The notes beneath the pieces were generated by a model that was given only the letters and a program-made list of their open reading frames with translations, was not told where the DNA came from and searched no databases. Shown piece after piece: positions 32,392-46,071 of a stretch of 64,000 bases of DNA. The stretch is taken from positions 25,873 through 89,872 of the forward strand of contig CAYLYJ010000001.1 of assembly GCA_964388185.1 (NCBI GenBank). The letters run 5' to 3'. A program made the position numbers and the translations under genes. The first letter of the stretch is position 1. Each line of letters begins with the position of its first letter. Source of the DNA: an uncultured Coriobacteriaceae bacterium. GTDB lineage: Bacteria > Actinomycetota > Coriobacteriia > Coriobacteriales > QAMH01.

Positions 32392-32814
32392 ATGAACGGC
32401 GAGCGCGACATACGGGCCGAGAGGCGAGGACAGGCTTGCGGGAGGGTGATCATCCCGCCGGACGTGAACCTGTGGCCCCACGAGCTCAGGACCGCCGACG
32501 CGCTGGCGAGGGCGGGGCACGTGGTCGAGTTCGTGCGCAAGAACGACACGCCGCACGAAAAGACGGCGGATGCTCTTGTAGACGGCGTCCTGTGGGAGTT
32601 CAAGGCGCCGAGGTCGAGCCATCTGAGCGCCGTCGAGCGCAACCTGAAGAAGGGGCGTTGGCAATCAGAACGCATTGTATTTGACGGCAGGCGCATGAAG
32701 CGGCTGCCTGATTACGCAATTGAGCGAGAAGTTCGCACAAGAGCATATAGGATTCCGCATATCAGGAAGCTGCTTTACGTAAATAAGCAAGGGCAAATCA
32801 TTGACATAAAATGA
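32392..32814 (+). CDS. Small basic protein with a PD-(D/E)xK-like nuclease motif (CdiA-CT/toxin-domain-like), 140 aa
   Basis: ATG at 32392. The upstream 121 codons of track ORF 32029..32814 run through three REPs and are rejected. The sequence ...HELRTADALARAGHVVEFVRKNDTPHEKTADALVDGVLWEFKAP...GRWQSERIVFDG... carries a D-x(n)-E-x-K core (D..DGVLWEFK). From memory it resembles stand-alone CdiA-CT tRNase-like toxin domains. A TACGAT hexamer 6 nt before the ATG is conserved with the copy at 41180-41185, which suggests a possible leaderless mRNA. Confidence 0.55.
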   Translation: MNGERDIRAERRGQACGRVIIPPDVNLWPHELRTADALARAGHVVEFVRKNDTPHEKTADALVDGVLWEFKAPRSSHLSAVERNLKKGRWQSERIVFDGRRMKRLPDYAIEREVRTRAYRIPHIRKLLYVNKQGQIIDIK

Positions 32815-33948: not shown

Positions 33949-33970
33949 ATAAGGGTAAGGGAATAGATGT

Positions 33971-34624: not shown

Positions 34625-34947
34625 TTGTGTCTCAGGGCCTTCTCGATGAAACATTGCTCTTGCTTGAGTCGCTTTAGCGTAAGCTCAAGCTGCTTTCGGT
34701 GCTCGACTTGCTGTCTAAGGCTAGATTCGACCTGTGCAGCGCGCCCGACGTAGTCGGTTACAACACGATTGCCGACGCGATGCTTGAGGTAGCAATATCT
34801 GTGATTGCTCCGCGTCTTGATTGCAACGCTGCCTTTCGGCAGAGAGGCAATCTCGGATTGGTAGGCTTCTTGTGCTCGGATGTTCCGGTCGAGCTCCTCA
34901 CGAAGTGTGTCTTTTATAATGTTAGATTCAGCCAACTGTTGCCCCAC
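34621..34947 (-). CDS. 108-aa coiled-coil/basic protein, putative cognate partner of the NTase
   Basis: GTG start at 34947. The product contains KTRSNHRYCYLKHRVGNRVVTDYVGR and a heptad-like C-terminus. It has a 4-nt ATGA overlap with the NTase gene. A perfect TATAAT lies on the minus strand at 34985-34980, upstream. Confidence 0.5.
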   Translation of the reverse strand: MGQQLAESNIIKDTLREELDRNIRAQEAYQSEIASLPKGSVAIKTRSNHRYCYLKHRVGNRVVTDYVGRAAQVESSLRQQVEHRKQLELTLKRLKQEQCFIEKALRHK

Positions 34948-35023
34948 AATTTGATAAAACGGGTGATTTGTAGGGCAACATTATAGCTAAAGTACAGCGG
35001 AGATAAAACGCAGGTATGCGAAC

Positions 35024-35048
35024 GTGACAGGGGCCTGACCCCTGTCAC
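35024..35048 (-). repeat. REP-like 25-nt palindromic hairpin element
   Basis: GTGACAGGGG-CCTGA-CCCCTGTCAC read directly. Confidence 0.9.
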
Positions 35049-35050
35049 GC

Positions 35051-35800
35051 TTAGCAGCGCTGGATGATGCCCCTGCCTATGCCAGTCATTCGCTCTATCT
35101 GGCGTATTGATAGCCCGCATGCCTTGAGCTTGCAGATCGACGTGTCACGGAAGCGCTTGTCCTTCGTCAAAAGCAGCTCCCTCCACTCCGGGCCAAGCTC
35201 GTGCTCGGCTATCCGCAAGGCCCTGCCGTTGCTTGGCTTTGCGGGTTGCCGGGGTTTTGTCTCGATCTCGATGTGGGCGTCAGTCGCCATTGCGTGAAAC
35301 GCCTGGAAGGCCGCCAGGTTGTCAAACATGCCGCTCACGAGAGTGATATCGCATATGTTGGGCTGGCCCGTGTACTCCTGGTAGCTGCTCCACGCGTAGT
35401 CGAGCGACTCGCAAAGACCGCCCTCGATCGGGTTTCGGTGTATGTAGCGCACGACCGTGAGCAGCTGCTCGTCGCTCTCTATGCCCTGGCTGCCGAACCG
35501 CCCTTGGAAAAGGTGCCCCGTGTGCCGGTGGCATTTGTTGAAATAGCTCGCGTAGGTTGACTGAAGCGTGCGCATGAACGATGAGATGGCCGTGATCGGG
35601 GCTTGTAGTAGCAGATGGACGTGGTTATCCATGAGAACCCACGCGAGGACCGTAACGTGAAGCGAGTCCGAGAAGCGGGCGATCAGCTCTAGGAACTCGA
35701 GGCGGTCGTCGTTGTCTTCGAAGATAAACTGGCGTCCCACACCGCGGTTGAACACATGATAGACGCCGCTTGTGCATTCAGATCGCATGATACGGGACAT
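35051..35800 (-). CDS. rayT: IS200/IS605-family Y1 HUH transposase of the REP-associated (RAYT) type with C-terminal HTH, 249 aa
   Basis: HUH motif in MDNHVHLLL; catalytic-Tyr motif in VVRYIHRNP; overall COG1943-like sequence (YHVFNRG...FEDDDDR...GHLFQGRF). The C-terminal ACGLSIRQIERMTGIGRGIIQRC looks like a DnaA-domain-IV-like HTH. A strong SD (AGGAAGGAGGACC) precedes the ATG at 35800. Confidence 0.85.
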   Translation of the reverse strand: MSRIMRSECTSGVYHVFNRGVGRQFIFEDNDDRLEFLELIARFSDSLHVTVLAWVLMDNHVHLLLQAPITAISSFMRTLQSTYASYFNKCHRHTGHLFQGRFGSQGIESDEQLLTVVRYIHRNPIEGGLCESLDYAWSSYQEYTGQPNICDITLVSGMFDNLAAFQAFHAMATDAHIEIETKPRQPAKPSNGRALRIAEHELGPEWRELLLTKDKRFRDTSICKLKACGLSIRQIERMTGIGRGIIQRC

Positions 35801-35821
35801 GGTCCTCCTTCCTGGACGTAT

Positions 35822-35846
35822 GTGACAGGGGCCTGACCCCTGTCAC
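35822..35846 (-). repeat. REP-like 25-nt palindromic hairpin element
   Basis: GTGACAGGGG-CCTGA-CCCCTGTCAC read directly. Confidence 0.9.
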
Positions 35847-35980
35847 ACCGCGCGCGGGTTTGTGCCGCTGAGCGGGGGAATCGTAGCACGGGAGCATCCG
35901 GGCGAAACACCCCCACAACCTGAACGGGTTCGGGATGATTTCGGTGCAATTTAGGAGTCTGTGCCGAGCGCGATAGGAAT

Positions 35981-36005
35981 GTGACAGGGGCCTGACCCCT
36001 GTCAC
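35981..36005 (-). repeat. REP-like 25-nt palindromic hairpin element
   Basis: GTGACAGGGG-CCTGA-CCCCTGTCAC with AAT/ATT flanks extending the palindrome. Confidence 0.9.
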
Positions 36006-36145
36006 ATTTCGGGGAAGCGCGACCGTTGCAGGAGAGACCTTAAACCGCCCCGCAAAGGCACGAAGCGCGCGTGGGGCGCCTGTTGCGCCGCGATCGGACG
36101 TCCGAGGCCTTCACGTGCGCGATCCGTGCCTTTACGGGGCGGACA

Positions 36146-36239
36146 GAGCCGGGCAAGCGTACCTGGGCTTGCCCGGCTCATCCCACGACAGGGCGAAGGC
36201 GCTGCCGCGGCAGTGCAATTTGCCCTACGCAAATTGCAC
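36146..36239. other. Two perfect hairpins in a gene-less REP-bounded slot
   Basis: GAGCCGGGCAAGC-gtacctgg-GCTTGCCCGGCTC (36146-36179, 13-bp stem) and GTGCAATTTGC-cctac-GCAAATTGCAC (36213-36239, 11-bp stem). There is no convincing ORF between REPs 36005 and 36266. Confidence 0.6.
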
Positions 36240-36265
36240 GTGGCTCACCAACGCGGGCAGGGGAC

Positions 36266-36290
36266 GTGACAGGGGCCTGACCCCTGTCAC
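36266..36290 (-). repeat. REP-like 25-nt palindromic hairpin element
   Basis: Perfect copy; 3 nt from the stop codon of the 36294 ATPase gene. Confidence 0.9.
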
Positions 36291-36293
36291 GTT

Positions 36294-37553
36294 TTAGGGA
36301 GCGAGCGCGGCAAGCGGAACAACGAGAACGCCGTCTTCGCGCTGGTAGGCAGCCGACGTCGCGGTAAGTACCATCAGGAACGAAGGGGCTCCCTCAGATT
36401 CCCGATCCACTCTCTCCGCAAGCTTTCTCAGGTTCTTTGCCGCCTGGTCAATTTGCGCGTTCCCCATCTTGACTTCAACGGGAGCCCATCGTCCGTCTTC
36501 TAGCACGATTACCGCATCCGCCTCGAGCCCGGTCTTATCACGGTAGTGGCACACACGACCGCCCATCGCATCTGCGTAGACGCGCAGATCGCGTATACAT
36601 AGGGACTCGAATAATAGGCCGAAGGTGTTGAAATCACTCATGAGTGTAGTCGGAGATGCCCCGAGTATCGCGATCGCAACCGACGGATCGCAGAAGTGCC
36701 GTGTCGGGCTGGTCCGAACGGCGGTCTTCGACCTTAACCTCGGATTCCAGGCCTCCAGATCATCGATGACGAACGCACGAGCGAGGGCATCGACATAGTC
36801 GGAAACAGTAACCATAGATGGTGGCTCGCCTTGCATGTCGGCCCGGATGGTGGAAAGGGGTGCCTCGGTCGATATATTTCTCGCATATGAGCGCATGATG
36901 GCCCTGAGCCAGGTCGAGTTGCGCCTCGTACCCTCGAGCTCATCTATGTCAGCATCCATCATCTCGTCAACGTAGTTTTTCGCCTGGGCAAGAGCAATCT
37001 TCGAATCATGCTCGATTACCGCCTGAGGCCATCCGCCTCGGCAAAGGGCATACGCGATTCTGTCTATGTCGAATTCAACGAGGGACTCAATTTCGCTGTT
37101 GCTATCAAATAGTTTTCTGAGCGAGACTGCGCCGCTGGACTCTCCCGACTCATACAGGGACATTGTTCGCATGCGGAGGCGAGCGATGCGTCCCACGCCC
37201 GAGTGGACTGGCCGCTTCTTGGGTGTTGCGGAGCCCGTGAGGATATAGGCGCCCTTTTCCCTCGTCATGTCCACGTCGAATCTAACCGCATCCCACAGCT
37301 GCGGCGCCATTTGCCATTCGTCTATGAGTCGCGGCTTCGGTCCCTCTAGAATTGCCGATGGCTTAATATCGGCAAGGGCAAGAAGTGATTGACTCGTGTC
37401 GGGATCCTGGAGAAGGACCGTGCTTGCCGCCCTCTGACGGCCGGTTTCCGTCTTGCCGCACCATTTGGGTCCGGTTATCTGAACGGCGCCCGACGTGCGG
37501 AGCATCCAGTCGAGCGTTTGGTCTGCAACACGCGGGATATACTTCCAACTCAT
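36294..37553 (-). CDS. AAA+ ATPase of the COG1373 type (AAA_14-like N-domain plus DUF4143-like C-domain), 419 aa
   Basis: Start MSWKYIPRV at 37553, after AAGGAA. Walker A is GPKWCGKT and Walker B-like is RLIDEWQ. The C-terminal GLEADAVIVLEDGRWAPVEVKMG carries a D...E-V-K motif. Closest paralog is the 39430 gene. Confidence 0.85.
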   Translation of the reverse strand: MSWKYIPRVADQTLDWMLRTSGAVQITGPKWCGKTETGRQRAASTVLLQDPDTSQSLLALADIKPSAILEGPKPRLIDEWQMAPQLWDAVRFDVDMTREKGAYILTGSATPKKRPVHSGVGRIARLRMRTMSLYESGESSGAVSLRKLFDSNSEIESLVEFDIDRIAYALCRGGWPQAVIEHDSKIALAQAKNYVDEMMDADIDELEGTRRNSTWLRAIMRSYARNISTEAPLSTIRADMQGEPPSMVTVSDYVDALARAFVIDDLEAWNPRLRSKTAVRTSPTRHFCDPSVAIAILGASPTTLMSDFNTFGLLFESLCIRDLRVYADAMGGRVCHYRDKTGLEADAVIVLEDGRWAPVEVKMGNAQIDQAAKNLRKLAERVDRESEGAPSFLMVLTATSAAYQREDGVLVVPLAALAP

Positions 37554-37609
37554 CTGCGTTCCTTTGCTCCGAGCTTTATTACCTTGCATTTTAGCAGACA
37601 ACTTTGCTA

Positions 37610-37665
37610 GTTGGACCGTTTTGAGTTTATGAGTTGGACTGTTTTGAGTTTACAAGTTAGACGAT
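37610..37665. repeat. 2.4 copies of a 23-bp tandem repeat upstream of the ATPase gene, truncated by a REP
   Basis: gttggaccgttttgagtttatga / gttggactgttttgagtttacaa / gttagacgat, then the REP at 37666. Confidence 0.85.
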
Positions 37666-37819
37666 GTGACAGGGGCCTGACCCCTGTCACATTTTGAGGG
37701 CCTGTGAGTGCGCAATGGGGTCTCTATGAGGCGTCGGCTGCTTGCGGGCTTCTGAGGGCGTTCTGGGGCTCCTACAGCCATGTTGCGACGCAACGTGACA
37801 GGGGCCTGGCACCTGTCAC
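37666..37819 (-). repeat. Composite element E1: REP - 104-nt conserved spacer - REP
   Basis: REP 37666-37690 is perfect; REP 37795-37819 is the variant GTGACAGGGGCCTGGCACCTGTCAC. The spacer aligns almost base for base with those at 39305-39408 and 40862-40968, and contains TTCTGAGGGC twice. Confidence 0.85.
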
Positions 37820-37821
37820 GT

Positions 37822-39135
37822 TTAGAGGAAGGCGGCCATGTAGATGGGAAGGTACGTGATGGCGCCTTGTTCCTCGACATTTTGCGTATGCAAAACCACC
37901 GCGCCTTCGAGCTTATAGTTCTTCACTTCGAGCAGCGCATCGAGCGCGGCGTGCTTGTGGGAGGATGCCCCCGATTTGACCTCGATGGGCACAACGAGGG
38001 GGTCTTGAGCCTCGTCAACGAGGAAATCAACCTCGCCGACGCCGCGCTTTTTGTAGTAGTAGATGCGCTCGTGTCCGTGCGCGCGCAGCTCTTGCGCGAC
38101 GGCGTTCTCGAAGACGCTGCTGAGGTTCATGTCCGGGGCCTTCGCCAGGAGCCTCTCGACGTCTGTGGCCGGTAACGTGGAGAACAGGAGCCCAACATCA
38201 GACAAGTAGAGCTTGAAGTGGGAGGCCTCTTCGGAAAGCCCAAGCGGGAACGTGGCTTGTGTGCAACGTCGAGCGGGGATGACGACGCCGGCGTCCTCGA
38301 GCCAGTCGAAGTCCGAGGCAAGGCGCTCGAAACGTCCACCCTCGGTCGCGGCGCTCACGTTGAAGCGGCGGTTTTCCTTGTTCAGTTGCGATGGGATGGC
38401 ATCGTAGATCGTCTTCACCTGCCGTGCACGGGGCTTGCCTTCGATGTAGCGCGTGATGTCGGCACGATAGGTGCTTAGGATGCCCCTTTGTCGGGCGCGA
38501 ACACGCTGCGTGTCCTGCGTGTCGAGCAAAAGCTGCACGGGCTCGGGCATGCCGCCAATGAGGAGGTAGCGCATCCAGAGGTCGAGAAGCTTTTCGTGGA
38601 TGAAGTCGGGGACGGGCGCGCGCGACGCGAAGCATTCGCGTGAGGTGTTCCAGAGGGTCGCATCGAGTCCATGCGCCCAGCAGAACTCCTCGAAGTCGAG
38701 GGGGAACATCTCGAGGATGTCGATGGTTCCCACAGGGAGCGAGCGGAAATCATACGCCTCGATGCCGAGCATGGAGCCCGAATAGATGACGTCGAAGCGG
38801 CTGTCTTGCGCGAGGTAGCGCATCCACGTTATGGCGTCTGCGCAGCGCTGCACCTCGTCGAAGAAGAGGAGCGTCTTTCCTTCGGAGAGGGGTTGGGACG
38901 AGAGGGACGTTATGCGCAGGAGGAGGTCATCAAGATCCTGTGCGGCGCCGATTACCTCGATGGCACGTGGTTGCTCGACGAAGTCGATTTTCACGGTCGA
39001 GTCGTAATGCTCGCGACCGAATGCCTCGATGCTATAGGTTTTGCCGATTTGCCGCGCACCTGTCACGAGGAGGCCCTGGGTGGTTTTTGTAGTGCGCCAT
39101 GCCTCCATTTCTGCTTCGATTTTTCGCTTGAGCAT
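37822..39135 (-). CDS. AAA+ ATPase of the COG1373 type (AAA_14-like plus DUF4143-like), 437 aa
   Basis: Start MLKRKIEAEMEAW at 39135, after AAGGGAG. The 54 upstream codons in the track ORF run through repeats. Walker A is GARQIGKT and Walker B is LLFFDEVQ. The C-terminal GVGEVDFLV...VVPIEVKSG carries a D...E-V-K motif. Stop TAA lies 2 nt from the REP at 37819. Confidence 0.85.
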   Translation of the reverse strand: MLKRKIEAEMEAWRTTKTTQGLLVTGARQIGKTYSIEAFGREHYDSTVKIDFVEQPRAIEVIGAAQDLDDLLLRITSLSSQPLSEGKTLLFFDEVQRCADAITWMRYLAQDSRFDVIYSGSMLGIEAYDFRSLPVGTIDILEMFPLDFEEFCWAHGLDATLWNTSRECFASRAPVPDFIHEKLLDLWMRYLLIGGMPEPVQLLLDTQDTQRVRARQRGILSTYRADITRYIEGKPRARQVKTIYDAIPSQLNKENRRFNVSAATEGGRFERLASDFDWLEDAGVVIPARRCTQATFPLGLSEEASHFKLYLSDVGLLFSTLPATDVERLLAKAPDMNLSSVFENAVAQELRAHGHERIYYYKKRGVGEVDFLVDEAQDPLVVPIEVKSGASSHKHAALDALLEVKNYKLEGAVVLHTQNVEEQGAITYLPIYMAAFL

Positions 39136-39175
39136 GGCGTGCTCCCTTGGTTGGATATCGGGGTTTCTACTGGGG

Positions 39176-39203
39176 AATATAGGCTGGATTAGCAAAAATG
39201 CAA
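39176..39203 (-). promoter_or_regulatory. Sigma-70-like promoter candidate for the 39135 ATPase gene
   Basis: The minus strand reads TTGCAT (39203-39198), a 16-nt spacer, then TATATT (39181-39176). The -35 hexamer is part of the tandem repeat unit. Confidence 0.35.
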
Positions 39204-39263
39204 ACTGAAAACCAGTGATTTTGGCAAAAATGCAAAGTGAAAAGAGGCGATTTTGGCAAAAAT
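39189..39263. repeat. 2.4 copies of a 30-32-bp tandem repeat upstream of the ATPase gene, truncated by a half-REP
   Basis: ttagcaaaaatgcaaactgaaaaccagtga / ttttggcaaaaatgcaaagtgaaaagaggcga / ttttggcaaaaat, then the half-REP. Confidence 0.85.
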
Positions 39264-39433
39264 GTGACAGGGACCAAACGTGACAGGGACCTGGCACCTG
39301 TCACGTTCTGAGGGCTTGTGAGTGCGCAATGGGGTCTCTGGAGGCGTCGGCTGCTTGCAGGGTTTCTGAGGGCGTTCTGGAGCTTCTACGGCCATGTCGC
39401 GACGCGATGTGACAGGGGCCTGACCCCTGTCAC
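39264..39433 (-). repeat. Composite element E2: half-REP, REP - 104-nt conserved spacer - REP
   Basis: Half site GTGACAGGGACC (39264-39275), variant REP 39280-39304 and perfect REP 39409-39433. The TGA stop of the 39430 ATPase gene (39430-39432, minus strand) is the TGA of GTGACAGG. Confidence 0.85.
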
Positions 39434-40734
39434 GTTGTTAGCGTGCGAATCGGGATGACGTAGATCCCATCTTCCACGACGCGCACGTATTCTCCAATGC
39501 CAACTAGCACCGCCATGAATTCGGGAGCGCGCGTCCTCGCCCCTTGCTGTTCGCACAGCTTGTTTCTCAGACGCGTAAGGTTCTTCACCGCTTCGTTGAC
39601 TTTTGACTCGCTCGTCTTTATTTCGATTGCCGCCCATCGTCCATCGACGAGTTCGATGATCGCATCGACCTCGAGACCGGAATCATCGCGGTAGTAGCGT
39701 ATCGGAACGGGTCGAGCTAGTTCCATTGCCCGCGTGTATACGGCAAGGTCACGCATGCAGAGGTTCTCAAAGACGAGTCCAAACGTCTGCCAATCGGCAT
39801 AAAGGGATTCCGAAGACATGCCAAGGGCGGCAATGGCAAGCGACGGGTCAGCTAGATAGCGACGTGGCTTGACCTGCAGCCTCTTCTTCGATCGCGCCGC
39901 CGGTTCCCAGCCTGGGATTTCCGTCGACAGATAGATGCGATTGAGAAAACTAAGATACTCGCCAATCTGCCTATCACTCAGTTGTTCGCCTGTTGCCCCC
40001 AAGGCGTCTTCGCGAATGGTCCTGTAAGTTGCGGATTGTCCCAGGTTGCGAGCGATTGACGCAATGATACGCTCGGTGACAGATGAATCGAGGTCATTGT
40101 CAGGCGCACTCTCATAGCAAACCGCGGCAAGATATTCCCTCGCGATGGTCTGGGCGTTTGTCACTGGCATGTTAATTGCCTCTGGCCATCCGCCACGGCA
40201 AACAATGTCCACAAGCTCTTTTGTGTCCGACGGGGTTTTCTCTGTAGCTGGAGGACCATCAAAAAGCCCTGACAGGGAAACCGAACCCGTGGAATCTTGA
40301 GATTCCGAGAGCGTCATGGGAGCCATCCTGATACGCCCTATACGGCCTGCGCCGCTATGACGCTTGTCTGCTTGCGGTTGTCCCTTTCCATGCTGCGGCG
40401 GAGTCGATGATCCTGTAAGGATCCAGCCGCCGTGCAAGCCTCGTTCCTCGTCTGCGGCATGACGAACCAGATTCCATATAGAGGGGACGCGTTGCCACTC
40501 GTCTATGATATGCGGCTTTTCCCCAACCAACATGAGGGAAGGATCGTCCAGCGCAAGTGCGTATTCCTTGTCTACGTAGCTGATTGACGCCCCGTGTTGT
40601 CTGGCGGTCCACGTCTTGCCGCACCATTTGGTCCCCTCTATTTCGACGGCGCCGAAGATATCGAGGTAGCGCTCGAGCTGCGCGTCGACGATTCGCGGAA
40701 TGTACCCTTTTGGAGCTATAGGGGAGGGTTGCAT
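39430..40734 (-). CDS. AAA+ ATPase of the COG1373 type (AAA_14-like plus DUF4143-like), 434 aa
   Basis: Start MQPSPIAPKGYIPRIVD at 40734, 7 nt after AGGAG. Walker A is GTKWCGKT and Walker B-like is HIIDEWQ. The C-terminus reads GLEVDAIIELVDGRWAAIEIKTS. Confidence 0.85.
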   Translation of the reverse strand: MQPSPIAPKGYIPRIVDAQLERYLDIFGAVEIEGTKWCGKTWTARQHGASISYVDKEYALALDDPSLMLVGEKPHIIDEWQRVPSIWNLVRHAADEERGLHGGWILTGSSTPPQHGKGQPQADKRHSGAGRIGRIRMAPMTLSESQDSTGSVSLSGLFDGPPATEKTPSDTKELVDIVCRGGWPEAINMPVTNAQTIAREYLAAVCYESAPDNDLDSSVTERIIASIARNLGQSATYRTIREDALGATGEQLSDRQIGEYLSFLNRIYLSTEIPGWEPAARSKKRLQVKPRRYLADPSLAIAALGMSSESLYADWQTFGLVFENLCMRDLAVYTRAMELARPVPIRYYRDDSGLEVDAIIELVDGRWAAIEIKTSESKVNEAVKNLTRLRNKLCEQQGARTRAPEFMAVLVGIGEYVRVVEDGIYVIPIRTLTT

Positions 40735-40758
40735 AGCAAGGCTCCTACGTTGGAAAAT

Positions 40759-40818
40759 ACCAAAATCCGAGTCATATTTTACCAAAATCCGAATTCATTT
40801 TCGCAAAAATCCGAGAAT
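40759..40818. repeat. 2.7 copies of a 22-bp tandem repeat upstream of the ATPase gene, truncated by a half-REP
   Basis: accaaaatccgagtcatatttt / accaaaatccgaattcattttc / gcaaaaatccgagaat, then the half-REP. On the gene strand the units end in TGGTAAAAT and TGGTATTTT, which are extended -10-like. Confidence 0.85.
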
Positions 40819-40993
40819 GTGACAGGGACCGACGATGTGACAGGGGCCTGGCACCTGTCACGTTCTGAGGGCCTGTGAGTGCGCAATGGGGTCTCTCTGT
40901 GAGGCGCCGGCTGCTTGCAGGGCTTCTGAGGGCGTTCTGGAGTTTCTACGGCCATGTTGCGACGCGATGTGACAGGGGCCTGACCCTTGTCAC
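40819..40993 (-). repeat. Composite element E3: half-REP, REP - 107-nt conserved spacer - REP
   Basis: Half site GTGACAGGGACC (40819-40830), variant REP 40837-40861 and REP 40969-40993 (CCCTTGTCAC arm). Confidence 0.85.
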
Positions 40994-40998
40994 AATTT

Positions 40999-41049
40999 TT
41001 AGCAGACACTTTGCAAGTTGGACTGTTTTGAGTTTACGAGTTGGACGAT
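40999..41049. repeat. Orphan copy of the 5' region of the 37553 ATPase gene
   Basis: ttagcagacactttgcaagttggactgttttgagtttacgagttggacgat matches 37591-37665 (same leader plus the 23-bp repeat, one unit fewer). Here it has no gene attached, and a REP sits on each side. Confidence 0.8.
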
Positions 41050-41073
41050 GTGACAGGGGCTGACCCCTGTCAC
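41050..41073 (-). repeat. REP-like palindromic element (24 nt, 1-nt deletion in loop)
   Basis: GTGACAGGGG-CTGA-CCCCTGTCAC. Confidence 0.85.
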
Positions 41074-41191
41074 GTAGGCGGGGTTTGGTCGGAATATGCT
41101 TGGGCGGAAGTCGGATTTCGCCCGGTAAAACCCGGTGAATCCGCGGTTTCCATTCGGCGAAACTGTTAAATTTGCTTGTTACGATAGGCCG

Positions 41192-41473
41192 ATGAACGAC
41201 GAGTGCAACATATGGGCCGGCGGACGAGCGAACGTGCATGTGGTCAAGGCGGTGGGGTCTGGCGATCCCGTTTGGCGAGGCGAAGCTACGCAAATGAACG
41301 GCGTGAAGGAGGTAACCAGGCAAATACAAGAGGCGTTTGCCATGCTTGAGATTTGCTCTGCCAAACTTGGTGTGTATAATACATTGTATGGGACTGGTCC
41401 TGTGGACCCTGGTCCTACCTGCGGCGGGGATATTCCCCGCCATTCCTCTTTCATGAGGTGTCCTCTTGCCTGA
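41192..41473 (+). CDS. Hypothetical 93-aa ORF sharing its leader and first codons with the 32392 gene (possible remnant)
   Basis: Bases 41097-41220 align with 32297-32420, including TACGAT, 6 nt and the ATG at the same offset; the sequences then diverge. The stop overlaps the TTG start of the next ORF (cTTGCCTGA). I recognise no domain. Confidence 0.3.
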   Translation: MNDECNIWAGGRANVHVVKAVGSGDPVWRGEATQMNGVKEVTRQIQEAFAMLEICSAKLGVYNTLYGTGPVDPGPTCGGDIPRHSSFMRCPLA

Positions 41474-41810
41474 TCTCGGGATCTTTATAGACGAGTCAGG
41501 CGATGTCGGATCGAACTCCGATTTCTATATCGTCACGCTCGTTCTACATGATCAGTCGAGTTCAATTGGATCTCAAGTTACGAGATTCGAAAATGAGCTC
41601 TCCTACCTTGGGATACCCGCTAATTCGATTATTCATGCTGGTCCGATTGTGCGCAGAGAAGAAGCCTATAAATACATGACGCTCGAGCTGCTGCGATTGA
41701 AAGAACGGCGCGGGGTTGCGCTGAGCCGGTCGGAGCAGATTTTTTTCGAAAGCAAGAGACGTCTAAACAAGGTCTTTCTCAAAACGTTGCGAAAGATCTC
41801 GTTTCAATGA
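41466..41810 (+). CDS. DUF3800-like protein, short/truncated form (114 aa)
   Basis: TTG start after GAGG. The N-terminus LGIFIDESGDVGSNSDFYIVTLVLHD...IIHAGPIVRREEAYKYM matches the DUF3800 pattern (yIDESG ... H ...), but the ORF is about half the usual length. Upstream are TGTGTATAAT and a GGCGGGGA-tat-TCCCCGCC hairpin (41423-41441). Confidence 0.45.
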   Translation: MPDLGIFIDESGDVGSNSDFYIVTLVLHDQSSSIGSQVTRFENELSYLGIPANSIIHAGPIVRREEAYKYMTLELLRLKERRGVALSRSEQIFFESKRRLNKVFLKTLRKISFQ

Positions 41811-41837
41811 TTGACCTAAGAGTGCGAAACGCAGAAT

Positions 41838-41852
41838 GTGACAGGGGGCAGG
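41838..41852. repeat. Partial REP (left arm only)
   Basis: GTGACAGGGGGCAGG with no right arm; 11 nt from the higA stop. Confidence 0.6.
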
Positions 41853-41863
41853 ATCTGGCGCAA

Positions 41864-42157
41864 TTATGCGTTCTTCACGAGGGGTGTGACCTGCGGGAGC
41901 TTGGACGCGTCGAGTAGTTTGAGCTGGTAGGTTGCCTCGAGGTTGAGCCAGAACTCCGGGGTAGTGCCGAGCGCCTTGCTAAGCAGCCAGGCCATTTCAG
42001 GAGTGATGGCTCTGCGGCCGTGGACGATTTCAGATATCGCGGATTGCGGCTTGCCGATTGCCTTGGCCAGGCGGTATTGGCTGATGCCAAGGGGATCCAA
42101 GAACTCCTCGAGCAGGATTTCGCCTGGGCTCGAGATGACATCGCTAATGGTAGTCAC
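41864..42157 (-). CDS. higA: HigA-family antitoxin (XRE-type HTH), 97 aa
   Basis: The GTG start at 42157 overlaps the end of higB by 14 nt. The product VTTISDVISSPGEILLEEFLDPLGISQYRLAKAIGKPQSAISEIVHGRRAITPEMAWLLSKALGTTPEFWLNLEATYQL is the classic HigA antidote pattern. The 233-aa track ORF is a read-through artefact. Confidence 0.9.
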   Translation of the reverse strand: MTTISDVISSPGEILLEEFLDPLGISQYRLAKAIGKPQSAISEIVHGRRAITPEMAWLLSKALGTTPEFWLNLEATYQLKLLDASKLPQVTPLVKNA

Positions 42158-42428
42158 AGAACTCAACTCCCGTCGCCTCGCCGTTTTCCCATGTAAAGCA
42201 CAGGCGCCATTGGCTGTTGACTCGTATGCTATAACGCTCAAAACGGGTGCCCCTGAGCAGTTCAAGCCTGTTTCCCGGCGGAATACGCAGGTCAGCAATT
42301 GCGTGGGCGGCATCGAGCATTTGAAGCTTGCGGTAGAGCGTTTTGCGCAGCTCGGGCGGTACGCGTCTGGGGTGGGACAGCATGGGGGCGTTCCAGAACG
42401 CCTCGATGTCTTTGTCTGCAAATTGCAC
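42144..42428 (-). CDS. higB: HigB toxin (RelE/ParE superfamily, plasmid-maintenance killer type), 94 aa
   Basis: ...LPPELRKTLYRKLQMLDAAHAIADLRIPPGNRLELLRGTRFERYSIRVNSQWRLCFTWENGEATGVEFCDYH matches the HigB-like toxin consensus. GTG start at 42428, 5 nt after GGAG. Confidence 0.9.
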   Translation of the reverse strand: MQFADKDIEAFWNAPMLSHPRRVPPELRKTLYRKLQMLDAAHAIADLRIPPGNRLELLRGTRFERYSIRVNSQWRLCFTWENGEATGVEFCDYH

Positions 42429-42458
42429 GCTCGCTCCATTGTTACGTGGCGCAGGAAT

Positions 42459-42487
42459 ATACTACTGTCGCGCGGAAGTATTGTCAA
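42459..42487 (-). promoter_or_regulatory. Sigma-70-like promoter for higBA
   Basis: The minus strand reads TTGACA (42487-42482), a 17-nt spacer, then TAGTAT (42464-42459). The spacer contains GCGCGGAA (plus strand 42470-42477). Confidence 0.55.
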
Positions 42488-42497
42488 GAGACACGAT

Positions 42498-42522
42498 GTG
42501 ACAGGGGCCTGACCCCTGTCAC
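42498..42522 (-). repeat. REP-like 25-nt palindromic hairpin element
   Basis: Perfect copy with CGAT/ATCG flanks. Confidence 0.9.
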
Positions 42523-42615
42523 ATCGCCGGGGTGAGCGTTGTTGACGGCATGAATATCTCCTCATCTGGGCATACGAAAGACGTTCGGTGTTTTACACCC
42601 TTTTCACTTAGAAAT

Positions 42616-42640
42616 GTGACAGGGGCCTGACCCCTGTCAC
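42616..42640 (-). repeat. REP-like 25-nt palindromic hairpin element
   Basis: Perfect copy with AAAT/ATTT flanks. Confidence 0.9.
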
Positions 42641-42702
42641 ATTTTGAGTATGTAAAGTGGGGAGTGTGATATAGTTATATAAAGTAGTTGAGAGGATGAA
42701 AA

Positions 42703-43863
42703 ATGATTCATCGCGCGTTAAGCGAAACGCTGTTGGAGATGGCGGGGGAGTACCCCGTTGTCGTGCTCACGGGGGCGAAGCAAACGGGAAAATCGACGCT
42801 TGCGAAGTCCTCGTTTCCCGGGTATCGACACATCTCGCTAGAGGATCCGGACGAACGGGAGTTCGCGCGGGATGACCCGCGGGCGTTTCTCGCGCATTGC
42901 GGCACGCGGGTGATTCTGGACGAGGCTCAGTTGGCACCCGATCTGCTCGGCTTCATCTTGCAGGCCCTCGACGCCAGGTGCGAGCCGGGGATGTTCGTGC
43001 TGACGGTATCGGCAAACTCCCTGCTCATAAGGCATATTCTCGAGAAGAACGATGATCGAGTCGGCGTTTTGCAGCTGCTGCCACTGACGTGCGCGGAGGC
43101 GGCGCAGATACGCGTCGAGTCCGATTGGACGTGGATTCTCAAGGGCGGTTATCCACGCATATATGATTTCGATAGCCGGCCAGGCGAGTACTTTCCTCGG
43201 TATATTCGAACGTATTTGGAGCGTGAAGTGCACGCTGACCTTGGCGTTCGGGAGCTAGAAGCGTTCGAGCGGTTCATGCGGGCGTGCGCGGTGCGGATTG
43301 GGAGGCCGCTCAATATCAACGAGCTGGCGCGGGAGTGCGGGGTTAGCGCGAAGACGGCGCGGAGTTGGTTGCGTGCCTTGCAGCGCGGGCAAGTGGTGCG
43401 ACTGGTGCCGGCGTTTTGGGCGGCGATTGGCAAGCGGCTGACGCGGTCGCCGAAGCTGTACTTCTACGACACGGGGCTGGCATGCAATTTGCTCGGGATC
43501 GGGCGGGTTGACGAGGCTGAGCGTGGTGCGTACCGGGGCGTTTTGTTCGAGAATGCCGTGCTGGCGGAGCTGCTGAAGGCGCGAGCGAATACGGGGCGGC
43601 CAGCTAACGTGCAGTATATGCGGGACAGCAATGGGAGCGGTGTAGACTTTATCGTTACCGGGGACGATGGGGCGCTGACGCTGATTGAGGCTGAGGCGTC
43701 GTCGACATATAACGAGTGCTTCTTCAAGCAGCTCGAGAAGTTCGGGCCGCTATTGGGTGTGCCAGTCGAGTCGCGATATGTGGTGTTTGGTGGCGAGGAG
43801 CGGATGGAGGCTCCGGGCGGTCGCGTGCTCGGCCTGCGGCATGTGCACGAGCTCGTTGAGTAG
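42703..43863 (+). CDS. AAA+ ATPase of the COG1373 type (AAA_14-like plus DUF4143-like), 386 aa
   Basis: ATG at 42703 after GAGAGGA. Walker A is GAKQTGKS and Walker B is VILDEAQ. The C-terminal GSGVDFIVTGDDGALTLIEAEAS has E-A-E in place of E-x-K, so the nuclease-like motif is degenerate. Confidence 0.85.
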   Translation: MIHRALSETLLEMAGEYPVVVLTGAKQTGKSTLAKSSFPGYRHISLEDPDEREFARDDPRAFLAHCGTRVILDEAQLAPDLLGFILQALDARCEPGMFVLTVSANSLLIRHILEKNDDRVGVLQLLPLTCAEAAQIRVESDWTWILKGGYPRIYDFDSRPGEYFPRYIRTYLEREVHADLGVRELEAFERFMRACAVRIGRPLNINELARECGVSAKTARSWLRALQRGQVVRLVPAFWAAIGKRLTRSPKLYFYDTGLACNLLGIGRVDEAERGAYRGVLFENAVLAELLKARANTGRPANVQYMRDSNGSGVDFIVTGDDGALTLIEAEASSTYNECFFKQLEKFGPLLGVPVESRYVVFGGEERMEAPGGRVLGLRHVHELVE

Positions 43864-43954
43864 GGCTAAATGTGAGTGTGCAAAATGGATACTAAAGAAA
43901 ATGAATATATAGAGATAATAGATATGCAAAATGGCCATATTCTAAATATCAAAT

Positions 43955-43979
43955 GTGACAGGGGTCAGGCCCCTGTCAC
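43955..43979 (+). repeat. REP-like 25-nt palindromic hairpin element
   Basis: GTGACAGGGG-TCAGG-CCCCTGTCAC. Confidence 0.9.
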
Positions 43980-44303
43980 ATGGGCGATCTCGCGATAAAG
44001 GCGATGCGATGAAGTGGAGAGAAATCTCGACGCATCGTGATACTGGATATGCCAGCAAAGCAAGGTTTCTGGTTATTGGGTAGAGCGACATGGTTGATAT
44101 GACCGTTATTCTTGGAATTGATTAACCGAGTTATGGCAACTTGATCGGATTTCTCGAGAGCCCTCAGAAAATAGCGCGTCAGAATGGCGTGTAACGGGTT
44201 TTTCTGAGTATCTATGAGTACCAAGTAGTTTAAAGATTTCGGGCCCTTAAATGGGCTCTATTTGCTTCACGTGATAAAAGCCCTGGTCAGATAGGGGCAA
44301 AAT

Positions 44304-44328
44304 GTGACAGTAATCTGACCTCTGTCAC
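44304..44328 (-). repeat. Degenerate REP
   Basis: GTGACAGTAATCTGACCTCTGTCAC keeps the GTGACAG...CTGTCAC ends and the CTGA loop core. Confidence 0.6.
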
Positions 44329-44344
44329 GGAAATGTGGATCGCT

Positions 44345-44611
44345 ATGGAAGCGGGAGTTTTTGCAGACACCGCAGAAGTTATGTCAAAAGGCCAGGTCAC
44401 AATACCCAAAGATGTCTGCAGCGCATTGGGTGTATTAACAGGTGACAAAGTCACATTCCTTGTTGAGGGCAGTAATGTGCGTATGGTAAATGCAGCAACA
44501 TATGCCATGCAGACTTTTCAGCAAGGGATGGCAGGCGAAGCTATGTCTTCGGGAATCACGAGTCCTGATGACGTCACTGATCTCGTTTCATCATTGCGGT
44601 CAAACGGATAG
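44345..44611 (+). CDS. AbrB/MazE/SpoVT-family DNA-binding protein (orphan antitoxin-like), 88 aa
   Basis: SKGQVTIPKDVCSALGVLTGDKVTFLVEGSNVRMV is the SpoVT-AbrB swapped-hairpin pattern. ATGs at 44333, 44345 or 44381 are all possible starts. No toxin gene follows; only REPs do. Confidence 0.7.
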   Translation: MEAGVFADTAEVMSKGQVTIPKDVCSALGVLTGDKVTFLVEGSNVRMVNAATYAMQTFQQGMAGEAMSSGITSPDDVTDLVSSLRSNG

Positions 44612-44618
44612 GGAAGAT

Positions 44619-44643
44619 GTGACAGGGGCCTGACCCCTGTCAC
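44619..44643 (-). repeat. REP-like 25-nt palindromic hairpin element
   Basis: Perfect copy, 7 nt after the AbrB-like stop. Confidence 0.9.
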
Positions 44644-44718
44644 ATCCAGATACCAAATGATGTGACGACCCGAGCTCATATCTCATACATTCGAAGCGAA
44701 TGCGATGCAATCAAAAAT

Positions 44719-44743
44719 GTGACAGGGACCTGACCCCTGACAC
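44719..44743 (-). repeat. REP variant
   Basis: GTGACAGGGACCTGACCCCTGACAC; part of a ~53-bp direct repeat (44692-44744 matches 44823-44875). Confidence 0.8.
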
Positions 44744-44794
44744 ATGAGCGCGACGCAAATCAATATCGCACTAATACTATATAGGGGTTCCGAT

Positions 44795-44819
44795 GTGACA
44801 GGGGCCTGACCCCTGACAC
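44795..44819 (-). repeat. REP variant
   Basis: GTGACAGGGGCCTGACCCCTGACAC; shares the right-arm T>A change with its two neighbours. Confidence 0.8.
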
Positions 44820-44849
44820 ATCGGAAGCGAATGCGATGCAATCAAAAAT

Positions 44850-44874
44850 GTGACAGGGACCTGACCCCTGACAC
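44850..44874 (-). repeat. REP variant
   Basis: GTGACAGGGACCTGACCCCTGACAC; second copy of the 53-bp direct repeat. Confidence 0.8.
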
Positions 44875-45547
44875 ATTTCGTCGCTTGACAAACGAGAAAC
44901 TAGCAAATGGTCTAAAAGGGAGTGACCCTTTTGAAGCATTTTGCAGCAACCGTATAGCCAGGTGTATAGGGAGATGTATATGCGATGTATAGAAAGATAT
45001 ACGGAGTTGTAGCAATATAATAGCGCCTGGTCAGAGCAGATTTAATCAGAATTGAAGATAAAGATGAAAAGGGGCCAATTTTGGGCCCCAAAAACGGCCA
45101 TCTTTGTAGCTGATGCAGTATAAAGATGGGGATATTTTGGGACTCAAAATGGGTCGGTTTTGACGTCAAAAGTGGCATCGGAAATGTGGCGAATTGTGGA
45201 GGAATTGTGAAGAGAATCGTGAAAATTGCCACTCACACTCCGAAAATTTGGCCGCCCGCTGACAAAAATCGGCTTTCTTTCGGAACTCTCCGAAGGAGTG
45301 TGGGATGCGAACGCGATCTGAAGGGGTTCCGCGCCTCTTTTCAGATCCCTTCCGCGCTCAAAATCTCACATTAAAGAGAAAAGAACAAAAAAGCGCGGAA
45401 CTCAAGGTCAACACAGGAAATACGCCCAAAACGCGAAAGCGCGGAATAGAAATCTCAGGGCTTCAGGGAGGGGGCTCCGCGTTGGTTTGCGCGGAGGACT
45501 CCGCGCCTCGAACCGGTAAAAAGCGCGGAACCCCAGGTCAGAGCGAT

Positions 45548-45572
45548 GTGACAGGGGCCTGACCCCTGTCAC
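45548..45572 (-). repeat. REP at the centre of a 59-nt extended palindrome
   Basis: CCCCAGGTCAGAGCGAT-REP-ATCGCTCTGACCTGCGG (45531-45589); the arms match at 26 of 27 positions. Confidence 0.9.
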
Positions 45573-45672
45573 ATCGCTCTGACCTGCGGAAATGTGAATG
45601 GAATTTTGTGTCAAGGATTTTGAGCGAAAAAAAGCGCGGAACCCTCGGTCAGCGGCAAGAGGCGCAGAGAAC

Positions 45673-45697
45673 GTGACAGGGGTCAGGCCCCTGTCAC
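45673..45697 (+). repeat. REP-like 25-nt palindromic hairpin element
   Basis: GTGACAGGGG-TCAGG-CCCCTGTCAC. Confidence 0.9.
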
Positions 45698-45725
45698 ATA
45701 GCATCTACCGGGAGAAACGAGAAAC

Positions 45726-45750
45726 GTGACAGGGGCCTGACCCCTGTCAC
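45726..45750 (-). repeat. REP-like 25-nt palindromic hairpin element
   Basis: GTGACAGGGG-CCTGA-CCCCTGTCAC. Confidence 0.9.
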
Positions 45751-46071
45751 GGGGAAGCGCGGAAGGAAAATTGAGGCAAAAGCCCAGGTCAGAGGCCATA
45801 TGAAGATTATCGGATTAGTTGATAAAGCGCTGACCTGCGGGTTTAGGAAGCGCGGAAGCCCGCGTTTTTGAGCGCGGAAATGGCCAAATTGTGCCTCTGA
45901 GCTGGACATCCGCGGAAGCGCGGAGTACTATTCCGTCTGCTTCGCCAAGGAGTGGGCTGTCTCGCTCCTGGCGATTGTCAAGAAGGAAGTCTCGATTCGG
46001 GGGAAGGATCTCGAGTCGGGGCGTTCGCAAGAAATGGGAACGAATTGTACGACCGCAAGGACATAGAGCAG

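What the first reader, a model, noticed from the sequence alone, without database searches (positions are those of the whole stretch)
36294..43863. Cluster of four divergent COG1373-type AAA+ ATPases with nuclease-like C-termini next to TA modules
Four paralogs lie within 7.6 kb (36294-37553, 37822-39135 and 39430-40734 on the minus strand; 42703-43863 on the plus strand). Each has Walker A (G-x4-GK[TS]) and DE[WVA]Q boxes. Three have a C-terminal [EV]-D...E-[VI]-K motif compatible with a PD-(D/E)xK core; the fourth has E-A-E instead. From memory, the DUF4143 domain is assigned to that nuclease superfamily, and the family has no established function. ATPase-plus-nuclease proteins clustered with HigBA, an NTase pair and a small nuclease resemble a defence island. 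No known defence system is recognisable to me here.
Basis: partly seen in the sequence, partly recalled or inferred. Interest (0 to 1): 0.6.

Follow-up and report, generated by a model that had tools for sequence, protein, structure and literature searches.

The report
Four PDC-S01 ATPase-nuclease genes with operators
Four divergent copies of a very common but unproven "phage-defence candidate" gene (an ATPase fused to a nuclease, PADLOC family PDC-S01) sit together in a fast-changing island of a gut Coriobacteriia genome, and three carry evenly spaced repeated DNA boxes in front of the gene that look like binding sites for their own protein.

Summary
Four intact paralogs (A 36294-37553-, B 37822-39135-, C 39430-40734-, D 42703-43863+) are all Pfam AAA_14+DUF4143. 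They are 22-43% identical and have Walker A and DE[WVA]Q motifs.

The family is already catalogued. All four match PADLOC PDC-S01 (E 1e-56 to 1e-161). This is an untested candidate defence gene; the one published challenge test I found listed it as tested but not among the protective systems.

Structure models give AAA+ / lid / winged helix / PD-(D/E)xK. A, B and C keep E...D...ExK. D has lost the lysine but is under purifying selection.

The "defence island" reading is weak. The neighbours are toxin-antitoxin-type genes and a REP-associated transposase with 30 REP-like hairpins, and none matches a validated defence system.

The new result concerns the regions upstream of the genes. A, B and C each have their own phased direct repeats there. 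Across phyla, A-type homologs show 3-4 boxes at 23 bp (14/21 vs 2/584 controls). B-type homologs show about 3 boxes at 32-33 bp (23/47 vs 2/141), and this was replicated in a second collection. D-type homologs lack the pattern.

The most likely reading is self-binding, autoregulated, ATP-gated DNA nucleases. The defence role remains unproven.

The parts
36294..37553 (-). Paralog A, 419 aa: AAA_14 + DUF4143, PDC-S01 (best model PDLC04790, E 2e-60). ExK motif intact.
   Evidence: Absent from related strain contig L081, with the junction at a REP hairpin.
37609..37654 (-). A boxes: 2 direct repeats of 23 bp (gene orientation AAACTCAAAAC[AG]GTCCAACT). The nearest box ends about 55 nt before the ATG.
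   Evidence: (shuffle p<=0.005). The 23-bp period recurs in A-type homologs.
37822..39135 (-). Paralog B, 437 aa: AAA_14 + DUF4143, PDC-S01 (PDLC04792, E 1e-161). Sub-threshold Mrr_cat and YraN hits in the C-domain.
   Evidence: C-domain model pLDDT 85, with nuclease-fold matches.
39189..39268 (-). B boxes: 3 copies at a 32-bp period (core GCATTTTTGC). The box nearest the gene overlaps a sigma70-like promoter (TTTGCA-17-TATATT, 39204-39176).
   Evidence: The 32-33 bp period recurs in B-type homologs.
39430..40734 (-). Paralog C, 434 aa: AAA_14 + DUF4143, PDC-S01 (PDLC04790, E 1e-55). ExK motif intact.
40754..40815 (-). C boxes: 3 direct repeats at a 22-bp period (gene orientation CGGATTTTGG). 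The nearest box ends about 20 nt before the ATG.
42703..43863 (+). Paralog D, 386 aa: AAA_14 + DUF4143, PDC-S01 (PDLC04790, E 5e-80). ATPase motifs are intact. The nuclease motif is degenerate: K331E, E313G, plus D175E and R177H. No phased boxes in the 62 nt between the hairpin and the ATG.
   Evidence: Full-length model pLDDT 92. dN/dS 0.11.
37666..37819 (.). Composite element of about 155 bp (REP hairpin + conserved core of about 105 bp + REP hairpin) between B and A.
39280..39433 (.). Second copy of the composite element, between C and B. It overlaps the C stop codon.
40837..40993 (.). Third copy of the composite element, upstream of C. An orphan A-type box lies beside it at 41016-41035.
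36266..36290 (.). REP-like hairpin GTGACAGGGGCCTGACCCCTGTCAC, 3 nt after the A stop codon. Together with the hairpin at 37795-37819 it bounds the A cassette that is missing in L081.
35051..35800 (-). Y1 (IS200-like) transposase whose best match is the REP-associated tyrosine transposase family. It is flanked by hairpins at 35024-35048 and 35822-35846.
   Evidence: NF047646, 69 bits, cut-off 80.
41864..42428 (-). HigB toxin (42144-42428) and HigA antitoxin (41864-42154).
   Evidence: Most of HigB is missing in related contig L083.
33971..34947 (-). NTP_transf_8 nucleotidyltransferase (33971-34654) with a small upstream partner (34621-34947; DUF6788 in the L081 gene call).
32398..32814 (+).
   Evidence: PF18451, E 6e-11.

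Best explanation
The locus holds four separately acquired, single-gene modules of the AAA_14/DUF4143 family (COG1373; PADLOC candidate PDC-S01).

Domain order (shown by models and motifs): each protein is an ORC/Cdc6- or STAND-like AAA+ ATPase, then a helical lid, a winged helix, and a C-terminal PD-(D/E)xK endonuclease domain.

Self-binding (inferred): the protein binds its own gene-specific array of helically phased boxes, which overlaps or abuts its promoter. The period is 22-23 bp in A and C and 32 bp in B. I infer that this keeps a potentially toxic nuclease autoregulated. It also shows that these proteins read specific DNA sequences and assemble cooperatively on repeated sites, as Orc1/Cdc6 does on origin boxes.

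Nuclease control (inferred): ATP binding and hydrolysis, through oligomerisation, gates the nuclease, which cuts DNA in a conflict with foreign genetic elements.

Paralog D (inferred): D has lost the catalytic lysine but is under purifying selection. It probably keeps the ATPase and DNA-binding role without normal cleavage.

How the cluster arose (partly shown): by accretion and recombination at REP-like hairpins in a variable island, not by recent tandem duplication.
For: Family assignment: Pfam and PADLOC PDC-S01 with near full-length matches.

Architecture: the D model has pLDDT 92 and the order AAA+ / lid / wHTH / alpha-beta-beta-beta-alpha-beta. Its top PDB fold hits are the archaeal Walker ATPase 2qen, RuvB, Apaf-1/CED-4, ORC/Cdc6 and Avs4. 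The best hits of the C-domain model are mostly PD-(D/E)xK nucleases: DdmD nuclease domain, McrC, Hjc, VRR_NUC and type II enzymes.

Catalytic residues: D256, E283, D315 and E329 are invariant and K331 is >90% conserved.

Boxes in the window: significant in A, B and C and different in each.

Boxes in homologs:
- B-type: the best period is 32-33 bp in 39/47 non-redundant upstream regions. It is significant in 23/47 vs 2/141 control regions (p=2e-14).
- B-type replication in IMG/VR: 14/21.
- A-type: the best period is 23 bp in 19/21. It is significant in 14/21 vs 2/584 (p=2e-21).
- Boxes are better conserved than the spacers between them.
- Box types follow protein similarity and cross phyla, including an archaeon.
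The only factor that travels with the boxes is therefore the encoded protein.

Promoter overlap.

Selection and turnover: dN/dS is 0.06-0.22 and dS is mosaic at 0.03-0.35. The A cassette is missing, and a different paralog E is present, in a related strain, with junctions at hairpins.

Conflict role: PDC-S01 was derived from genes embedded in BREX, DISARM or type I RM systems. COG1373 is among genes shared near-identically across gut genera. A Thermus AAA_14/DUF4143 gene rises 6.6-fold when a plasmid is present.
Against: - No member of the family has a demonstrated activity.
- One PDC-S01 gene tested in E. coli B against T4, T5 and T7 is not among the systems reported to protect.
- Neighbours here and around homologs are mostly not defence genes.
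- Binding of the protein to the boxes is an inference with no direct test.
- The winged helix is no more variable than the other domains, so it is not obviously the part that sets specificity.
- D-type homologs lack the phased repeats, so the feature does not hold for the whole family.
- The nuclease-fold matches are individually weak (best E 0.014).
Confidence: 0.5

Rival explanations
1. These are selfish, addiction-like or mobile-element maintenance genes with no benefit in defence. An autoregulated nuclease would persist because losing it is harmful, or because it spreads by horizontal transfer.
For: - Multi-copy, divergent arrays.
- Strain-level gain and loss.
- Cross-phylum transfer.
- Co-location with toxin-antitoxin modules and a REP-associated transposase.
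- Tight autoregulation is typical of toxin-antitoxin loci.
- The negative phage test.
Against: - It is a single gene with no antitoxin partner.
- It is rare on plasmids (59 of 72,556 records) and phages (14 of 50,697).
- There are no terminal inverted repeats belonging to the gene itself.
- Purifying selection fits a cellular function as well as a selfish one.
Confidence: 0.2
2. These are sequence-specific regulators or DNA-transaction (repair or recombination) factors of the host. The nuclease-fold domain would serve in binding or oligomerisation, and the boxes would be ordinary operators.
For: - Neighbours of homologs are mostly housekeeping genes.
- Phased operators overlap promoters.
- D survives under selection without the catalytic lysine.
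- RuvB- and Hjc-like fold matches.
Against: - The catalytic E, D, E and K are invariant or nearly so across hundreds of homologs, which argues for catalysis.
- The A, B and C box sequences occur almost only upstream of their own genes in the window. The exceptions are one orphan A-type box at 41016-41035 and single short-core matches.
- Patchy, strain-variable distribution does not fit a housekeeping role.
Confidence: 0.12
3. These are remnants of replicons. An ORC-like initiator with iteron-like repeats (22-23 bp, as in iteron plasmids) next to AT-rich DNA would mark the origins of integrated elements.
For: - Direct repeats at 22-23 or 32-33 bp in AT-rich DNA: 33-39% GC upstream against 51% in controls.
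- ORC/Cdc6 appears among the fold matches.
Against: - Several copies lie side by side on a chromosome with no other replicon or mobile-element genes.
- A C-terminal restriction-type nuclease is not a feature of known initiators.
- The family is rare on plasmids.
Confidence: 0.04

Closest known systems
PADLOC phage defence candidate PDC-S01 (Payne et al., bioRxiv 10.1101/2024.01.29.577857; Pfam AAA_14 + DUF4143; COG1373)
   Same: All four proteins match PDC-S01 HMMs over nearly their full length and have the same two-domain architecture. PDC-S01 is described as an ATPase fused to a PD-(D/E)xK domain and as the fourth most common 'defence' call in prokaryotes.
   Different: Nothing differs at the protein level except D's lost lysine. 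The tandem array of four, the REP-bounded cassette turnover and the phased upstream boxes are not mentioned in the few papers I found. The family's defence role is itself untested.
Archaeal Orc1/Cdc6 initiators bound to origin recognition boxes (e.g. PDB 2qby), and the archaeal Walker ATPases 2qen and 2fna
   Same: AAA+ followed by a lid and a winged helix. Repeated sequence boxes lie next to the gene in AT-rich DNA.
   Different: These proteins carry a C-terminal nuclease. The boxes are direct repeats at fixed 23 or 32-33 bp spacing overlapping a promoter. Many copies occur per genome. No role in replication is indicated.
NTPase-plus-nuclease defence effectors: Avs (STAND NTPase + Mrr-like nuclease), McrBC (AAA+ + McrC nuclease), DdmD (helicase + PD-(D/E)xK)
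   Same: An NTP-driven motor or switch is coupled to a PD-(D/E)xK nuclease. Avs4, McrC and the DdmD nuclease domain appear among the fold matches.
   Different: There is no sensor repeat domain as in Avs, no separate nuclease subunit as in McrBC, and no helicase core as in DdmD. Everything is one 390-440 aa chain with the nuclease at the C-terminus. The resemblance is in how it may work, not in family membership.
PDC-S27 and other predicted ATPase-nuclease families of unknown function
   Same: PDC-S27 is described as having the same logic, an ATPase fused to a PD-(D/E)xK domain, and is equally uncharacterised and multi-copy. From my own knowledge, Arch_ATPase/DUF234 and AAA-ATPase_like/PDDEXK_9 are similar cases.
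   Different: These are different Pfam families. Only C gives a faint PDC-S27 hit (E 0.02).

Membership tests
PADLOC PDC-S01 (AAA_14/DUF4143, COG1373) | Match to a PDC-S01 profile HMM | tested here: met
   A 2e-60, B 1e-161, C 1e-55, D 5e-80. The best matched stretch is near full length for A, B and C; D matches in two stretches.
PADLOC PDC-S01 (AAA_14/DUF4143, COG1373) | Pfam AAA_14 N-terminal domain plus DUF4143 C-terminal domain | tested here: met
   Both domains are above the gathering score in all four.
PADLOC PDC-S01 (AAA_14/DUF4143, COG1373) | Embedded in or next to BREX, DISARM or type I RM (the basis of the candidate call) | tested here: not met
   No such genes in the island. No strong RM, BREX or DISARM hit among 125 neighbour families of homologs. 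This criterion applies to the family, not to each member.
PADLOC PDC-S01 (AAA_14/DUF4143, COG1373) | Protection against phage or plasmid | not testable with these tools
   The family is unvalidated. One representative was tested against T4, T5 and T7 and is not among the protective systems reported.
PD-(D/E)xK nuclease superfamily (C-terminal domain) | Core motif: E on helix 1, D on strand 2, E-x-K on strand 3 | tested here: met
   Met for A, B and C. E283, D315 and E329 are invariant and K331 is >90% conserved. NOT met for D, which has E-A-E and G in place of the conserved E313.
PD-(D/E)xK nuclease superfamily (C-terminal domain) | alpha-beta-beta-beta-alpha-beta fold resembling solved nucleases | tested here: met
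AAA+ ATPases | Walker A, Walker B, and the sensor and arginine-finger positions | tested here: met
   Walker A GK[ST] and Walker B DE are invariant. S103/N105 and R119 are conserved at the positions expected for sensor 1 and the arginine finger in the model; this is an inference from the order of secondary-structure elements. B has T at the R119 column. Fold matches are to RuvB, ORC, RFC and FtsH.
STAND / Avs-type defence NTPases | C-terminal sensor repeat domain (TPR, WD40, LRR) | tested here: not met
   The chain ends after the nuclease domain and has no repeat domain.
REP / RAYT system (neighbouring feature) | Y1 transposase of the REP-associated type, flanked by short palindromic repeats that are dispersed in intergenic DNA | tested here: inconclusive
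   There are 30 hairpin copies against 0 expected, and the gene is flanked by two of them. Its best NCBIfam hit is REP_Tyr_transpos, but at 69 bits it is below the 80-bit cut-off.

The most novel reading that the evidence does not exclude
PDC-S01 proteins are ORC-like, sequence-reading AAA+ nucleases that assemble on helically phased arrays of cognate boxes. The array at their own promoter would be an autoregulatory copy of what they recognise. Divergent paralogs in one genome (A, B, C, and E in the sister strain) would be orthogonal protein-box pairs that together widen the range of foreign DNA recognised, for example iteron-like or origin-like repeat arrays of plasmids and phages. This would give one of the commonest uncharacterised prokaryotic gene families a concrete, testable mechanism.
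Probability: 0.2. Interest if true: 0.8.

Novelty: new member of a known kind. Interest (0 to 1): 0.45.

Why it matters
COG1373/DUF4143 (PDC-S01) is reported as the fourth most frequent "defence" call across prokaryotes and the most frequent single locus in rumen genomes. No activity, trigger or target is known for it.

This locus adds little at the protein level. The comparison it prompted gives a handle on the family: conserved boxes with subfamily-specific phasing that travel with the gene. This predicts sequence-specific self-binding, which can be tested directly by gel-shift or footprinting and with reporter fusions. It also suggests that challenge tests in E. coli may miss the relevant targets.

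The locus also shows how such arrays are built and reshuffled at REP-like hairpins in a Coriobacteriia genome.

Tried and rejected
- Exact-sequence look-ups of B and D found no record.
- PDB sequence searches found only generic AAA+ hits and no relative with a solved structure.
- Literature searches on AAA_14 returned noise, and PABY2304 returned nothing.
- I tested whether the winged helix is hypervariable, which would suggest diversifying specificity. It is not; entropy is similar across domains.
- I looked for phased repeats upstream of D-type homologs. Only 13 of 77 were significant and the periods were scattered. The enriched 7-mers (ATTTGCA, ATATTTG, ATTGACA) look like ordinary promoter consensus. 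The box architecture is therefore not claimed for D or its subfamily.
- Rfam has no family matching the upstream boxes.
- I considered a composite 155-bp element as a shared promoter of A, B and C and rejected it. It is reduced to a single hairpin upstream of B in the sister strain, and only a hairpin lies upstream of E there.
- The test for defence enrichment among neighbours lacked a proper background and is only descriptive. Only 125 of 242 neighbour families were scanned.
- Box-protein co-variation was examined only as co-inheritance, which phylogeny alone could produce.
Full report

Yes. ORF listing shows four intact genes at the stated coordinates:
- A: 36294-37553 (-), 419 aa
- B: 37822-39135 (-), 437 aa
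- C: 39430-40734 (-), 434 aa
- D: 42703-43863 (+), 386 aa

All four carry Pfam AAA_14 (PF13173) and DUF4143 (PF13635) above the curated cut-offs.

Walker A is G-x4-GK[ST]. Walker B is DEWQ, DEVQ, DEWQ and DEAQ in A to D. The C-terminal motif is D...E-[VI]-K in A, B and C and E-A-E in D.

The copies are old paralogs: identity to A is 22% for B, 43% for C and 25% for D. A family HMM finds no further copy in the 64-kb window.

Clustering is a property of the family. Of 83 homolog loci fetched, 18 hold 2-5 divergent copies within about 20 kb.

The genes are under purifying selection. Against contigs of a closely related strain, dN/dS is 0.06 for B, 0.22 for C and 0.11 for D.

The organism is a Coriobacteriia. 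The best genome match for B is 73%, in an Adlercreutzia MAG, and it is followed by Coriobacteriaceae, Gordonibacter and Collinsella.

**2. What is already known**

DUF4143/COG1373 was assigned to the PD-(D/E)xK superfamily in 2012, with function listed as unknown (PMC3424549).

All four proteins match PADLOC's PDC-S01 models:
- A: 2e-60
- B: 1e-161
- C: 1e-55
- D: 5e-80

PDCs are 145 candidates described as "untested". They were derived from genes found embedded in BREX, DISARM or type I restriction-modification loci (bioRxiv 10.1101/2024.01.29.577857).

PDC-S01 is described as an ATPase fused to a PD-(D/E)xK domain. It is the fourth most common "defence" call in prokaryotes and is still awaiting validation (PMC12988326). 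It is also the most frequent single locus in rumen genomes.

One representative was cloned into E. coli B and challenged with T4, T5 and T7. It is not among the four systems reported to protect.

The locus is four members of a catalogued but unproven candidate family.

**3. Protein anatomy**

An AlphaFold2 model of D (pLDDT 92, pTM 0.91) shows four parts:
- an AAA+ core (about residues 1-155)
- a helical lid
- a winged helix (three helices plus a wing, about 185-254)
- an alpha-beta-beta-beta-alpha-beta domain (about 255-386)

The best PDB fold matches of the whole chain are the archaeal Walker ATPase 2qen, RuvB, Apaf-1/CED-4, ORC/Cdc6, MalT and Avs4. A family profile reaches only 2fna, RFC, RuvB and TnsC by sequence. 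No solved relative exists.

A separate model of B's C-terminal 131 residues (pLDDT 85) matches mostly PD-(D/E)xK proteins among its best hits. These include the DdmD nuclease domain, McrC, Hjc/Hje resolvases, VRR_NUC, SfsA and several type II enzymes. Each match is weak: best E 0.014, probability 0.98.

Two more lines support a functional nuclease site in A, B and C. The E283, D315, E329 columns are invariant and K331 is >90% conserved. B also gives sub-threshold Mrr_cat and YraN hits.

D differs, and so does its 96% identical twin from another sample. Both carry K331E, E313G, D175E and R177H, whereas their nearest relatives at 55% identity keep the consensus. D's ATPase motifs are intact and its dN/dS is 0.11. 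D therefore looks like a maintained variant with an altered or dead nuclease site, not a pseudogene.

**4. Surroundings**

The genes lie in a 14-kb stretch of lower G+C (50-58%) between giant surface-protein genes (63-65%).

The neighbours are:
- HigB/HigA
- an NTP_transf_8 protein with a small partner
- a CdiA_C toxin-domain protein
- a truncated DUF3800 gene
- a MazE/AbrB-like protein
- a Y1 transposase whose best match is the REP-associated tyrosine transposase family (69 bits, cut-off 80)

None of the ten neighbours matches a validated defence system in PADLOC.

Around B-type homologs elsewhere, the neighbours are mainly transporters, regulators and metabolic enzymes. A minority match AbiE, SoFic and other PDC models. 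There is no strong RM, BREX or DISARM hit among the 125 neighbour families scanned.

The family is rare in phage records (14 of 50,697) and plasmid records (59 of 72,556). COG1373 is listed among genes shared near-identically between gut genera.

"Variable island rich in toxin-type modules" is a fair description. "Defence island" is not shown.

**5. How the cluster is built**

A 25-bp perfect hairpin, GTGACAGGGG-YCWGR-CCCCTGTCAC, occurs 30 times in the window against 0 expected. Twenty-six copies lie in the island and flank every gene. A composite element of about 155 bp (hairpin, core, hairpin) sits between A and B, between B and C, and upstream of C.

Comparison with the related strain (L081, L083) shows turnover at these hairpins:
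- The A cassette (window about 36295-37792) is absent, and a single hairpin marks the junction.
- A different paralog E (49% identical to A) sits upstream of C.
- Most of HigB is missing.
- DUF3800 is full-length there.

Synonymous divergence differs ten-fold between adjacent genes: B 0.35, C 0.03, D 0.15. The array is therefore assembled and reshuffled gene by gene, not produced by recent duplication.

**6. New finding: phased boxes upstream of the genes**

A, B and C each have direct repeats just upstream of the start codon, and the sequences are unrelated to one another:
- A: two copies of 23 bp
- B: three copies at 32 bp
- C: three copies at 22 bp

All three are significant against shuffles. 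D has none.

The B box nearest the gene overlaps a sigma70-like promoter.

I then tested homologs.

*B-type, genome contigs.* There were 47 non-redundant upstream regions, from Coriobacteriia, Bacteroidales, Bifidobacterium, Clostridia, Spirochaetales and one Methanomethylophilaceae archaeon. The best tandem period is 32 or 33 bp in 39. The repeat is significant with period 31-34 in 23 of 47, against 2 of 141 intergenic upstream regions of neighbouring genes (Fisher p=2e-14).

*B-type, independent set from IMG/VR.* The best period is 32-33 bp in 14 of 21.

*A-type, IMG/VR.* The best period is exactly 23 bp in 19 of 21. The repeat is significant with period 22-24 in 14 of 21, against 2 of 584 control windows (p=2e-21).

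There are usually three or four boxes of 12-18 nt. The last one ends 1-38 nt before the ATG in B-type and about 40-55 nt before it in A-type.

Identity between copies is 0.93 (B-type) and 0.99 (A-type) inside the box, against 0.49 and 0.67 in the spacers.

Box sequences differ between homologs but follow protein similarity, and they cross phylum boundaries.

D-type homologs do not show the pattern. Rfam has nothing matching the boxes.

**7. Interpretation**

Periods of 22-23 and 32-33 bp are two and three helical turns, so the boxes lie on one face of the DNA.

The module moves between phyla as a single gene with its own box sequence. The only trans-acting factor that is always present is therefore the encoded protein, which has a winged helix and an ORC-like AAA+ core.

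I infer self-binding and autoregulation. More generally, I infer that these are sequence-reading, cooperatively assembling AAA+ proteins with an attached nuclease.

None of the following is shown:
- the direction of regulation
- the role of ATP
- the nuclease substrate
- any role in defence

The winged helix is not especially variable, so what determines specificity is unknown.

**8. Verdict**

The locus is four new members of a known candidate family and is ordinary at the protein level.

Three things go beyond the catalogue entry:
- the nuclease-degenerate but selected copy D
- the REP-bounded cassette turnover
- above all, the conserved, subfamily-specific phased boxes, which turn an uncharacterised and very abundant family into something directly testable

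Noticed in passing
window 32001-45750, 58741-58963 and 61766-61832; gene 35051-35800(-): A REP-like 25-bp perfect hairpin (GTGACAGGGG-YCWGR-CCCCTGTCAC) occurs 30 times against 0 expected. A Y1 transposase whose best match is the REP-associated tyrosine transposase family is itself flanked by two copies. This looks like a REP/RAYT system in a Coriobacteriia genome. Among 83 fetched loci, the hairpin is found only in the two contigs of the same species (L081, L083).
   Followed up: partly
window 37666-37819, 39280-39433, 40837-40993: Three copies of a composite element of about 155 bp (hairpin + conserved core of about 105 bp + hairpin) separate the tandem paralogs. In the sister strain the copy upstream of B is collapsed to a single hybrid hairpin. 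The element resembles a BIME or MITE.
   Followed up: partly
window 41390-41438(+), 41466-41810(+): The Rfam DUF3800-XI RNA motif scores 43.9 bits, above its gathering score of 37.8, directly upstream of a DUF3800 gene. The gene is truncated here (114 aa) but full-length (224 aa) in related contig L083.
   Followed up: no
window 41016-41035(-): An orphan copy of paralog A's upstream box (AAACTCAAAACAGTCCAACT) lies beyond the composite element upstream of C. This is the place where the sister strain carries the A-like paralog E. It is probably a footprint of cassette rearrangement.
   Followed up: partly
window 42201-42614 vs L083: Most of HigB and one hairpin are absent from related contig L083, which leaves an orphan HigA next to D. 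This is strain-level loss of the toxin gene.
   Followed up: partly
window 45952-61659(+), also 27045-31886(+) and most of 1-26000: Giant ORFs (5,235 and 1,613 aa) encode repetitive surface-type proteins. The 5,235-aa ORF reads through two REP hairpins (58741-58765 and 58939-58963, translated as VTGVRPLSH). It is therefore probably two or more genes fused by the mechanical ORF call.
   Followed up: no
window genes B, C, D vs L081/L083: Synonymous divergence between the two strains differs ten-fold between adjacent genes (B 0.35, D 0.15, C 0.03). This indicates allele replacement by recombination, gene by gene.
   Followed up: partly
window 32398-32814(+) and 33315-33884(-): An orphan CdiA_C toxin-domain protein has no CdiA body attached. 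Next to it is a 189-aa ORF with no family match, which could be its immunity partner.
   Followed up: no
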